From positions 25,039 through 89,038 of the forward strand of contig CALXWO010000004.1 in assembly GCA_944392485.1 (NCBI GenBank): a DNA stretch of 64,000 nucleotides. The letters run 5' to 3'. The notes beneath the pieces were generated by a model, which saw only the letters and a program-made list of their open reading frames with translations, had not been told where the DNA came from and did not search any database. Below, piece after piece: positions 522 to 655 of this stretch. The DNA is from an uncultured Clostridia bacterium. GTDB lineage: Bacteria > Bacillota > Clostridia > TANB77 > CAG-508. The translations under genes were made by a program, and so were the position numbers. The stretch's first letter is position 1. The number at the start of each line of letters is the position of its first letter.

Positions 522-655
522 AAATTGTAATTTGTTGTTGTGATGTGAGAGGTGTGAAGTGTGAGGTGTGCTTTTTAGAGCTAGGCTACGTAAGGCTTGC
601 CCTAATTTCACACTTCCCACATCCCACTTCTCACTTCTCATTCAAATTACAGTTT
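522..655. repeat. Miniature inverted-repeat element of the TIR family, cargo type A (GT-rich palindrome).
   Basis: Termini AAATTGTAATTTG (522-534) and CAAATTACAGTTT (643-655) enclose an imperfect palindrome gtgagaggtgtgaagtgtgagg...cacttcccacatcccacttctcac. A near-identical copy lies at 42245..42379. Confidence 0.6.

What the first reader, a model, noticed from the sequence alone, without database searches (positions are those of the whole stretch)
522..655. Family of TIR-bounded miniature elements (AAATTGTAATTTG ... CAAATTACAATTT) carrying four cargo types; 9 copies in 64 kb.
Copies are at 522-655 and 42245-42379 (cargo A, GT-rich palindrome), 22698-22872 and 44966-45202 (cargo B, TAGAGAT heptamers plus REP hairpins), 52048-52217, 54383-54552 and 57711-57917 (cargo C, with the palindrome attttttgttga(t/a)tcaacaaaaaat), and 63034-63212 (cargo D, two REP hairpins). 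All share the same 13-bp inverted termini, and type C ends are terminus-loop-terminus hairpins. Same-type copies are 95-97% identical, which implies recent mobility. Their cargo varies and they sit in short intergenic gaps next to core genes (asnB, recO, ruvA, glmS, rodA, minE, mutS2, cca). This looks like a MITE-like or IS-derived system that has captured REP units, not a simple terminator motif.
Basis: seen in the sequence. Interest (0 to 1): 0.7.

Follow-up and report, generated by a model that had tools for sequence, protein, structure and literature searches.

The report
Hairpin DNA modules filling a 12-bp site
The repeats are real and mobile, but they are non-coding hairpin modules that slot into one specific 12-base site (AAATTACAATTT) and are swapped between closely related strains of an uncultured gut Clostridia bacterium; the "inverted termini" are partly that target site rebuilt on each side.

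Summary
The 13-mer occurs 16 times against 1.3 expected and bounds eight non-coding, strongly hairpin-forming elements of mosaic content.

The MITE reading is only partly right. Strain-level contigs show every slot keeps identical flanks and ends, while the cargo differs between strains. The same cargo allele appears in different slots and in both orientations.

Two slots are empty in some strains. An empty site is a single AAATTACAATTT. A filled site is AAATT|GTAATTTG…cargo…CAAATT|ACAATTT. So the outer 5 and 7 bases of the "TIRs" are target sequence, insertion is strictly site-specific, and the empty site shows no scar. No transposase-bearing copy with these ends was found.

In other gut MAGs the same 12-mer separates single-gene cassettes that are exchanged exactly at that site.

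The window holds one intact Y1/HUH (RAYT/IS200-like) gene and one decayed one. The REP hairpins in cargo B and D match REPs inside the decayed gene.

Best model: cut-and-paste 3' of AAATT through single-stranded hairpin intermediates. The site-specific insertion is shown. The enzyme and the single-stranded intermediate are inferred.

I rate it a new variant of the REPIN/BIME/IS200-type kind.

The parts
522..655 (.). Element A1: GT-rich long hairpin cargo in the slot between asnB 3' end and folD. The slot-specific variant AAACT/ACAGTTT lies in the outer, target-derived part.
   Evidence: The same slot holds A1, an A hybrid or a B2-like cargo in other strains, and all but one (L150, AAATT) keep AAACT.
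22698..22872 (.). Element B1: TAGAGAT heptamer arm, a REPIN made of two inverted GTAGGGG REPs, and a D-type arm. It sits in the recO/hpf slot, and the recO stop codon lies inside the left 13-mer.
   Evidence: The slot is empty in strain L142 (single AAATTACAATTT) and carries B1, D-like, A2 or C cargo in other strains.
39722..39733 (-). Unoccupied target site. On the minus strand it reads AAATTACAATTT, followed at once by an RBS and start codon.
   Evidence: It is filled in strain L144, whose contig starts inside a B/D-type right arm ending ...CAATTATACAAATTATAATTT followed by the same flank.
42245..42379 (.). Element A2 in the ruvA 3' slot.
   Evidence: Other strains carry D in both orientations, E or A2 at this slot.
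44966..45202 (.). Element B2: heptamer arm, three REPs and a D-type arm, between the divergent glmS and an 88-aa gene.
   Evidence: A1-type cargo replaces it in L109, L160, L162 and L163. In L163 the left flank is a different genomic region, with the breakpoint at AGATT|GTAATTTG.
52048..52217 (.). Element C1: C-core palindrome flanked by two mini-hairpins, in the dus/ydcC slot. Its right end abuts the RBS of ydcC on the minus strand.
   Evidence: Alleles at this slot are C, A2, E+C, D and E.
54383..54552 (.). Element C2, the inverted copy of C1, between the terminator of the upstream gene and the rodA RBS.
   Evidence: Alleles at this slot are C, A in both orientations, and the full B palindrome. 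The orthologous slot is also occupied in goat MAG JAFQIK01.
57711..57917 (.). Element C3: a composite of C core plus an E module (GGGACTGTCCC hairpins). The left terminal hairpin is lost by a small deletion. The right end abuts the mutS2 RBS.
63034..63212 (.). Element D: GGGACGG arm, two GTAGGGG REPs and a B/D arm. The stop codon of the 90-aa gene lies in its 13-mer.
   Evidence: Alleles at this slot are D, A, F and a truncated E.
4274..4984 (-). Intact Y1/HUH transposase gene ('RAYT-1', 236 aa).
   Evidence: PF01797 at E = 1.2e-12. The best NCBIfam hit is REP-associated tyrosine transposase, 74.8 bits against a cut-off of 80. It is conserved in most strains and internally deleted in L150.
4259..4276 (+). 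Hairpin and inverted repeat GCCATTGGGGACGTATTA at the 3' side of RAYT-1. Its partner is at 5090-5107 on the minus strand.
   Evidence: The same architecture flanks homologue P0017 in another species.
5090..5107 (-). Partner inverted repeat at the 5' side of RAYT-1.
7720..8333 (-). Decayed classical RAYT gene ('RAYT-2'; motifs MPNHVHLII and IWQRNYYEHIIRNE), spread over three reading frames.
   Evidence: It is deleted in strain L156.
7889..7914 (+). GTAGGGG-type REP hairpin inside the RAYT-2 remnant. It matches 23 of 26 bases of the REP at 63126-63151 in element D.
8045..8078 (-). Second, inverted REP inside the RAYT-2 remnant.

Best explanation
These are non-autonomous, palindromic 'hairpin modules' that integrate site-specifically into a 12-bp near-palindromic target, AAATT^ACAATTT.

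The inserted DNA is GTAATTTG...cargo...CAAATT. Joined to the two target halves, it rebuilds the 13-bp inverted pair AAATTGTAATTTG...CAAATTACAATTT, which forms the base of one long hairpin. The empty allele shows no scar, so a slot can apparently be emptied and refilled by another module in either orientation. Modules that carry 12-mer-like sites can be nested, which produces the mosaic types A to F. This much is shown by empty, filled and swapped alleles.

The mechanism is inferred. I propose a single-strand 'peel-and-paste' reaction of the IS200/IS605-RAYT (HUH Y1) type. It would cut 3' of AAATT in the left flank, at the right end of the module, and in the target. The excised junction CAAATT+GTAATTTG is the reverse complement of the target, so the two could pair with it, with cuts staggered by 2 nt around the central GT/AC.

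The GTAG REP hairpins in cargo B and D are ordinary RAYT-type REPs that have colonised the modules.

Any effect on neighbouring genes (mRNA hairpins, position next to the RBS) is secondary and untested.
For: Site-specific insertion:
- Strain L142 (99.65% identical flanks) has ...GAATAC AAATTACAATTT TGACAAAT... where the window has AAATT|GTAATTTG..B1..CAAATT|ACAATTT.
- The window's lone site at 39722 is filled in strain L144.
- The orthologous recO site in a species about 80% identical is a single AAATTATAATTT.
- The outer boundary is sharp, with no conservation outside the 12-mer across 150 sites.
- Outer-half variants tend to stay with the slot whatever the cargo: AAACT in the A1 slot in all strains seen but one (L150 has AAATT), and AGATT in L163.

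Mobility and swapping:
- Clonal contigs (at least 99.99% identical) carry identical cargo.
- Strains 95-99.8% identical differ in cargo at all seven occupied slots examined.
- The identical A1 allele occurs in three slots.
- A and D occur in both orientations at one slot.
- In L107 an E module replaces the mini-hairpin inside a C composite.

Hairpin nature: z = -4.9 to -7.4 for type A. The stem is conserved across 10 copies from several species.

The same 12-mer acts as an exchange point elsewhere: contigs 99.98-100% identical differ only in the gene lying between two 12-mers, and five different genes follow one CATACAAATTACAATTT.

Candidate enzymes: one intact and one decayed Y1/HUH gene lie in the window. 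REPs inside the decayed RAYT match those of cargo D.

Both empty sites read AAATTACAATTT on the minus strand. That strand is the purine-rich coding strand and so the presumed lagging-strand template (GC skew -0.12 to -0.22 on the plus strand), as for IS608-type targets. IS200/IS605 chemistry is taken from PMC6006769.
Against: - No enzyme is linked to the 12-mer. RAYT-1 is flanked by its own unrelated hairpins. A 53%-identical homologue lives in a species with no 12-mer elements within 16 kb. RAYT-1 is deleted in one strain and RAYT-2 is a pseudogene.
- IS200/IS605 elements are asymmetric and are cut outside their subterminal hairpins. Here the ends are symmetric and the inferred cuts lie inside the stem.
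- Some variants argue for variable breakpoints, meaning homologous exchange as well. The inner variant GTAACTTG stays in the rodA slot with both A and B cargo.
- The L142 empty allele comes from a 2.6x coverage contig. A hairpin deletion made in vitro cannot be fully excluded.
- L144 shows only the right junction.
- No circle or tandem junction was found.
- Only two empty sites support the strand argument.
Confidence: 0.6

Rival explanations
1. Classical MITEs. The elements have their own 13-bp terminal inverted repeats, are moved in trans by a DDE transposase of a related IS, make a 5-bp AAATT target duplication, and have picked up REPs.
For: The elements are small, non-coding and repeated, with inverted ends. 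AAATT is formally a 5-bp direct repeat around the insert. They are polymorphic between strains.
Against: If AAATT is treated as a target duplication, the element proper is GTAATTTG...C and has no right-hand inverted repeat. The right 'TIR' is made of the duplication plus target bases. Every copy lies in the same 12-bp target. No copy with a transposase turned up in the window, about 60 related 8-kb loci, 50 strain contigs, or the phage and plasmid collections. Larger pairs hold passenger genes. Polymorphism is mostly replacement, not presence or absence.
Confidence: 0.1
2. The 12-mer is the core site of a conservative double-strand site-specific recombinase (tyrosine or serine), as in an integron or dif-module system. 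Both the hairpin modules and the gene cassettes would be circular cassettes integrated at it.
For: Gene cassettes are exchanged exactly between directly repeated 12-mers in several MAGs. The site is a palindrome with an asymmetric central dinucleotide. The hairpin with a variable centre recalls attC. Breakpoints of larger rearrangements fall at the site.
Against: Hairpin modules are flanked by sites with inverted central dinucleotides (GT...AC). Conservative recombination between one cassette site and one target site cannot produce that. No integrase or resolvase gene lies in the window or next to the arrays in the sequence held. The ends do not match the attC cores RYYYAAC/GTTRRRY.
Confidence: 0.17
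3. The elements are fixed structural or regulatory intergenic hairpins, such as terminators, mRNA stabilisers, RNase III sites or promoter-bearing spacers. Their alleles would be shuffled only by ordinary homologous recombination between strains, with no transposition.
For: Slots are conserved among all strains, and two of four are conserved in a species about 75-85% identical. Slots lie between an intrinsic terminator and the next RBS. About 15% of ends abut an RBS. Strain genomes are mosaics of 87-99.9% identity. Some breakpoints are variable.
Against: Identical cargo alleles occur at different loci and in both orientations. Empty alleles differ by a precise unit. Orientation is unrelated to the direction of transcription. 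The same 12-mer bounds exchangeable genes elsewhere. Promoter-like matches are at background level.
Confidence: 0.08
4. The elements are genes for structured small RNAs, with the 13-mers forming the closing stem.
For: Folds are strong. As RNA one strand of types A and C is 5-15 kcal/mol more stable in most type A copies checked, using G-U pairs.
Against: No Rfam family reaches threshold. Only chance sub-threshold miRNA-like hits appear. Both orientations occur at one slot. With DNA parameters the two strands fold about equally. Only 2 of 41 pairs show compensatory change. Cargo is interchangeable at a slot.
Confidence: 0.03

Closest known systems
REPINs / REP sequences with RAYT (Y1 HUH) transposases, and E. 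coli BIMEs
   Same: Short intergenic palindromic repeats. GTAG-tagged REP hairpins occur in inverted pairs (cargo B and D). A RAYT-class gene in the genome has matching REPs. The build is a mosaic with conserved outer motifs, like the BIME A/B motifs. The elements persist at orthologous loci. Content at a given locus differs between strains; that BIMEs behave this way is from my own knowledge of the literature, not a tool result.
   Different: A 12-bp specific target and the rebuilt 13-bp inverted frame are not features of REPINs or BIMEs. Cargo types A, C, E and F have no GTAG REP. Whole-module replacement, inversion and nesting occur here. The same site also bounds gene cassettes.
IS200/IS605 family and its miniature derivatives (PATEs)
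   Same: No conventional duplication. Insertion is immediately 3' of a short specific sequence, and the empty site is seamless. The DNA forms hairpins. Y1 transposase genes are present. Target orientation is consistent with the lagging-strand template.
   Different: The ends are symmetric, where IS200/IS605 has distinct left and right ends. The inferred cuts lie inside the terminal stem, not outside a subterminal hairpin. The target is 12 nt rather than 4-5 nt. No cognate transposase has been identified.
Integron attC sites and gene cassettes
   Same: A structured imperfect palindrome with conserved ends and a variable centre, probably used in single-stranded form. Arrays of promoterless single-gene cassettes are swapped at the conserved site (in other MAGs).
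   Different: No IntI integrase or attI platform. The core sequences are unrelated. Sites are dispersed through core-gene intergenic regions rather than gathered in one array. In the window the hairpins are themselves the mobile unit, not the site that follows a gene. A 2016 survey reported integrons absent from Firmicutes (PMC4889954, listed; its content is recalled from memory).
Correia elements (NEMIS) of Neisseria, and the BOX, RUP and ERIC repeats
   Same: Roughly 100-250-bp intergenic inverted-repeat elements close to gene starts and ends. They form long RNA/DNA hairpins, are modular (BOX A-B-C), and come in variants.
   Different: Those elements have their own long TIRs and a TA duplication (Correia, RUP), or no defined target. 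None is known to occupy a single 12-bp target or to be replaced wholesale between strains. Comparison from memory, not tested here.

Membership tests
MITE (TIR/DDE type) | Terminal inverted repeats that belong to the element | tested here: not met
   Empty and filled alleles show that the outer 5 nt (left) and 7 nt (right) of the 13-mers are target sequence.
MITE (TIR/DDE type) | Target-site duplication of fixed length at varied targets | tested here: not met
   Only the AAATT inside one specific 12-mer is repeated. Flanks outside it show no duplication.
MITE (TIR/DDE type) | A parent IS with the same ends that encodes a transposase | tested here: inconclusive
   None was found in the window, in 104 genome loci (about 60 of them from related low-GC MAGs), in about 50 strain contigs, or in the phage and plasmid collections. 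Whole genomes were not searched.
REP/REPIN-RAYT system | Short hairpin with a 5' GTAG guide, often as inverted pairs | tested here: met
   GTAGGGG...CCC hairpins occur in inverted pairs in B1, B2 and D. They are absent from cargo A, C and E.
REP/REPIN-RAYT system | RAYT gene associated with the same REPs | tested here: met
   The RAYT-2 remnant at 7720-8333 contains two inverted REPs that match 23 of 26 bases of the REP in element D. The gene is a pseudogene here.
REP/REPIN-RAYT system | The RAYT recognises or mobilises the whole 13-mer-framed module | not testable with these tools
   This needs biochemistry or genetics. RAYT-1 homologues exist without such modules nearby.
IS200/IS605-derived miniature elements (PATE) | Insertion 3' of a specific short sequence, without duplication, leaving a seamless empty site | tested here: met
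   AAATT^ACAATTT when empty against AAATT|GTAATTTG...CAAATT|ACAATTT when filled.
IS200/IS605-derived miniature elements (PATE) | Distinct left and right ends with subterminal hairpins and guide tetranucleotides | tested here: not met
   The ends are symmetric, and the only shared structure is the terminal stem itself.
Integron cassette / attC | IntI integrase and attI next to an array | tested here: not met
   No tyrosine recombinase lies in the window or beside the arrays in the 8-kb loci held.
Integron cassette / attC | attC core sites R''/R' (RYYYAAC / GTTRRRY) | tested here: not met
   The ends are AAATTGTAATTTG / CAAATTACAATTT.
Known RNA families (Rfam 15) | Score at or above the family gathering threshold | tested here: not met
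   No hits at gathering thresholds. Only sub-threshold mir-548 and mir-2807 matches to the C hairpins.

The most novel reading that the evidence does not exclude
AAATTRYAATTT is the attachment and cleavage site of an undescribed, genome-wide cassette system in a clade of uncultured low-GC gut Clostridia. One machinery, perhaps an HUH enzyme acting on single strands, would move both non-coding hairpin modules between dispersed intergenic slots and single-gene cassettes (GNAT, DUF4241, HTH, CPBP and others) in and out of arrays. That would make it a functional analogue of integrons without IntI or attC, in a phylum where integrons are reported absent.
Probability: 0.3. Interest if true: 0.85.

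Novelty: new variant of a known kind. Interest (0 to 1): 0.62.

Why it matters
If the model is right, a 12-bp site defines reusable "sockets" across the chromosome of abundant but uncultured gut bacteria. Hairpin modules, and in relatives whole genes, would be plugged in, removed and exchanged at rates visible between strains more than 99% identical.

That would add a site-specific, probably single-strand, mode of mobility to the REPIN/IS200 world. It would explain a major source of intergenic strain variation and of assembly breaks in these MAGs. It would also point to an integron-like gene-shuffling route in Firmicutes.

Because the sockets sit directly upstream of ribosome-binding sites of core genes such as rodA, mutS2 and ydcC, module choice could also alter expression. 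Practically, the modules are ready-made strain markers.

Tried and rejected
- **Rfam:** nothing at gathering thresholds. A permissive scan gave only chance miRNA-like hits.
- **tRNA scan:** none.
- **Literature search for the motif string:** only unrelated primers.
- **Promoter hypothesis** (TACAAT in the right end as a -10 box): the promoter-like count equals that of shuffles, and the spacing to the RBS is too short. Dropped.
- **Alternative genetic code** as the reason for split genes: all three stop codons end long ORFs. Rejected.
- **RAYT homologues in held loci:** a local tblastn against the loci held at that point found none.
- **RAYT-1 as the dedicated enzyme:** weakened by its own unrelated hairpins and by a homologue in a genome stretch without modules.
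- **Viral contig scan for the extended end:** 18 mostly chance single hits.
- **Metagenome scan for the predicted circle or tandem junction** ATACAAATTGTAATTTGTAT: 24 hits, none of them a junction of two modules.
- **Plasmid and phage BLAST with B1 and A2:** no match.
- **Covariation in type A:** the copies are too similar, and only 2 of 41 pairs are compensatory.
- **Organism name from protein clusters:** no names are held.
- **Exact look-up with the TTG-start hpf ORF:** failed.

Full report
**Observation**

The window has 27.5% G+C. AAATTGTAATTTG with at most one mismatch occurs 16 times on both strands, against 1.27 expected and never more than 5 in 100 shuffles. Fifteen occurrences are the ends of the eight elements at the coordinates given. 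The sixteenth, at 39722, stands alone.

The cargo descriptions are accurate:
- Type A is a GT-rich imperfect palindrome.
- Type B has TAGAGAT heptamers plus GTAGGGG-type REP hairpins.
- Type C is an AT-rich palindrome flanked by two small terminus-loop-terminus hairpins.
- Type D has two REPs.

Corrections:
- Only eight elements are listed, not nine.
- 57711-57917 lacks its left 13-mer.
- B1 and B2 are only 76% alike in ungapped register.
- C1 and C2 are mutually inverted.

All elements fold into one long hairpin. Type A as ssDNA gives z = -4.9 to -7.4. No Rfam family and no tRNA is involved.

**The family is widespread**

It returned, besides chance hits, many loci from low-GC (24-29%) uncultured Clostridia, Clostridium and 'Mollicutes' MAGs of human, mouse, goat and rabbit guts. 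At least seven of these genomes carry the same 13-mer pair around the same cargo modules, namely type A, REPINs and the GGGACTGTCCC module. The conserved unit is a 12-mer, AAATT-GT-AATTT. It is a palindrome with an asymmetric central dinucleotide and a sharp outer edge.

**Slots with exchangeable cargo**

Exact-protein look-ups recovered about 50 contigs of the same species from other samples. Contigs at least 99.99% identical to the window have identical elements. Contigs 95-99.8% identical have the same flanks and the same 13-mers but different cargo at every one of the seven occupied slots examined.

Alleles seen at three of the slots:

| Slot | Cargo alleles |
|---|---|
| rodA | C, A in both orientations, a full B palindrome |
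| dus/ydcC | C, A, D, E, an E+C composite |
| recO/hpf | B1, B1 with one heptamer fewer, D-like, A, C, empty |

The identical A1 allele is found in three different slots. D occurs in both orientations at the ruvA slot. This is not the presence/absence pattern of an ordinary MITE.

**Empty sites define the insertion**

At the recO/hpf slot, strain L142 reads ...GAATAC AAATTACAATTT TGACAAAT.... The window reads ...GAATAC AAATT|GTAATTTG-cargo-CAAATT|ACAATTT TGACAAAT.... The flanks are 99.65% identical.

The window's lone site at 39722 has the same 12-mer on the minus strand, followed directly by an RBS. In strain L144 that position is preceded by the right arm of a B/D module. In a goat-gut relative about 80% identical, the recO site is a single AAATTATAATTT, while the rodA- and mutS2-upstream slots are occupied by other cargo.

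The consequences are:
- The target is the 12-mer.
- The insert is GTAATTTG...CAAATT, with its position ambiguous only within the repeated AAATT.
- The outer 5 and 7 bases of the apparent TIRs are target sequence.
- The empty site carries no scar.

Outer-half variants tend to stay with the slot regardless of cargo, as expected: AAACT at the asnB slot in all strains seen but one (L150 has AAATT), and AGATT in L163. One inner variant, GTAACTTG at the rodA slot, also stays with the slot. Some exchange with variable breakpoints, meaning homologous recombination, must therefore occur too.

**Composite types**

The small hairpins at the ends of type C can be read as minimal inserts in 12-mer-like sites carried by the C core. 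In L107 one of them is replaced by a complete E module. In the window's C3, an E module abuts the C core. B1, B2 and D are chimeras that share half-arms. Nesting and recombination therefore account for the 'four cargo types'.

**The same site bounds genes elsewhere**

In other MAGs the motif flanks single genes (AAATAGTAATTTG-RBS-ORF-...CAAATTACAATTT), sometimes in tandem. In mouse- and human-gut MAGs, arrays of small accessory genes are separated by single 12-mers. The genes include GNAT, DUF4241, DUF4299, HTH, a metallophosphoesterase and an alpha/beta hydrolase. Two contigs that are 99.98-100% identical differ only by the gene lying between two 12-mers. A third has two genes there. Five different genes follow the same CATACAAATTACAATTT. 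No recombinase was seen beside these arrays in the sequence held.

**Candidate enzymes**

The window encodes an intact 236-aa Y1/HUH protein at 4274-4984. It hits PF01797, and its best NCBIfam match is REP-associated tyrosine transposase at 74.8 bits against a cut-off of 80. Perfect 18-bp inverted hairpins flank it.

The window also holds a decayed classical RAYT at 7720-8333. It contains two inverted GTAGGGG REPs that closely match those in cargo D. This explains the REP component.

Neither gene is tied to the 12-mer:
- The intact gene keeps its own hairpins in another species where no 12-mer modules lie within 16 kb.
- It is deleted in one strain, and the RAYT remnant is deleted in another.
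- No other recombinase domain is present in the window.

**Mechanism (inferred)**

Cutting 3' of AAATT at three places reproduces every junction seen: in the left flank, at the right end of the module, and in the target. This matches the chemistry of IS200/IS605-type HUH transposases, which act on single strands, make no duplication and leave a seamless donor (PMC6006769).

The excised junction CAAATT+GTAATTTG would be the reverse complement of the target, so the two single strands could pair, and the two cuts would lie 2 nt apart around GT/AC. Either strand of a filled slot has the same ends, which would explain both cargo orientations.

Both empty sites read AAATTACAATTT on the minus strand. 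That strand is the purine-rich coding strand and so the presumed lagging-strand template.

Several points count against a simple membership in IS200/IS605:
- The ends are symmetric.
- The cuts fall inside the stem.
- The target is 12 nt long.
- No enzyme has been assigned.

A double-strand integrase-type reaction fits the gene cassettes. It does not fit the inverted central dinucleotides of the hairpin modules.

**Function**

At two slots the module lies between the intrinsic terminator of the upstream gene and the RBS of the next gene. About 15% of ends abut an RBS. Orientation is not linked to the direction of transcription, and cargo is interchangeable. Any regulatory role is therefore secondary and untested.

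**Verdict**

The repeat family is real, and recent mobility is shown. The 'TIR-bounded MITE' label is only partly right. It is best described as a new variant within the REP/REPIN-BIME and IS200-like world: hairpin modules that occupy and exchange within a specific 12-bp socket. The link to gene-cassette arrays in related genomes is the most novel lead.

Noticed in passing
window 57936-60282, 30396-31470, 654-2503, 52265-53249, 33736-37297, 24877-26245, 61940-62939: Many core genes are split into two or three ORFs by frameshifts: mutS2, obg, asnB, dus, smc (with a 368-nt gap), spoIVA and an ABC ATPase. The same splits appear in independent assemblies of other strains. All three stop codons are used as stops, so this is not a recoded genome.
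   Followed up: partly
window 60283-62939; L107:2960-3010: A 4-gene ABC-transporter operon with its bidirectional terminator is absent in strain L107. One edge of the indel is exactly the right end of the D-slot element.
   Followed up: partly
L163:850-1272 (slot equivalent to window 44966-45202): In this strain the DNA to the left of the glmS-upstream slot is a different genomic region. The breakpoint falls exactly at AGATT|GTAATTTG, so the sites also mark larger rearrangements.
   Followed up: no
L103:4592-5281, L044:4136-4676, L074:6100-7625, L025:121-593, L043:3068-3079: Arrays of single accessory genes are separated by the 12-mer in mouse- and human-gut MAGs. Contigs 99.98-100% identical differ only in the gene or genes between two 12-mers.
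   Followed up: partly
L039:1056-2469, L003:5153-6488, L001:65-667, L126:12417-13099: Single-gene units are framed by AAATAGTAATTTG...CAAATTACAATTT and joined by a conserved spacer of about 15 nt (AGTAATTAGTTAGAA in L039 and L003). They lie inside conjugative-element contexts (VirD4/VirB4 genes). An identical 198-aa XRE-type membrane protein unit occurs in two different species.
   Followed up: partly
L158:5986-8681: In another gut species, the homologue of the window's Y1 transposase is present as two hairpin-flanked copies around a passenger gene downstream of rplL. There it behaves like an active IS200-type element.
   Followed up: partly
window 9061-11702: A cluster of small paralogous genes shares MENASKAL... 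N-termini (pilin-like). It lies next to large ORFs with no Pfam match (5109-7706, 11715-13790, 13915-17426).
   Followed up: no
window 47185-47319 and 50415-50549: An 84%-identical 135-nt repeat with REP-like GC-rich stretches (CCCCTAC) lies inside two ORFs that have no Pfam match. Both ORFs vary in length between strains.
   Followed up: no
window 33087-33299: A 15-nt periodic low-complexity repeat lies within the ORF of ribosomal protein L21, which is extended to 160 aa.
   Followed up: no
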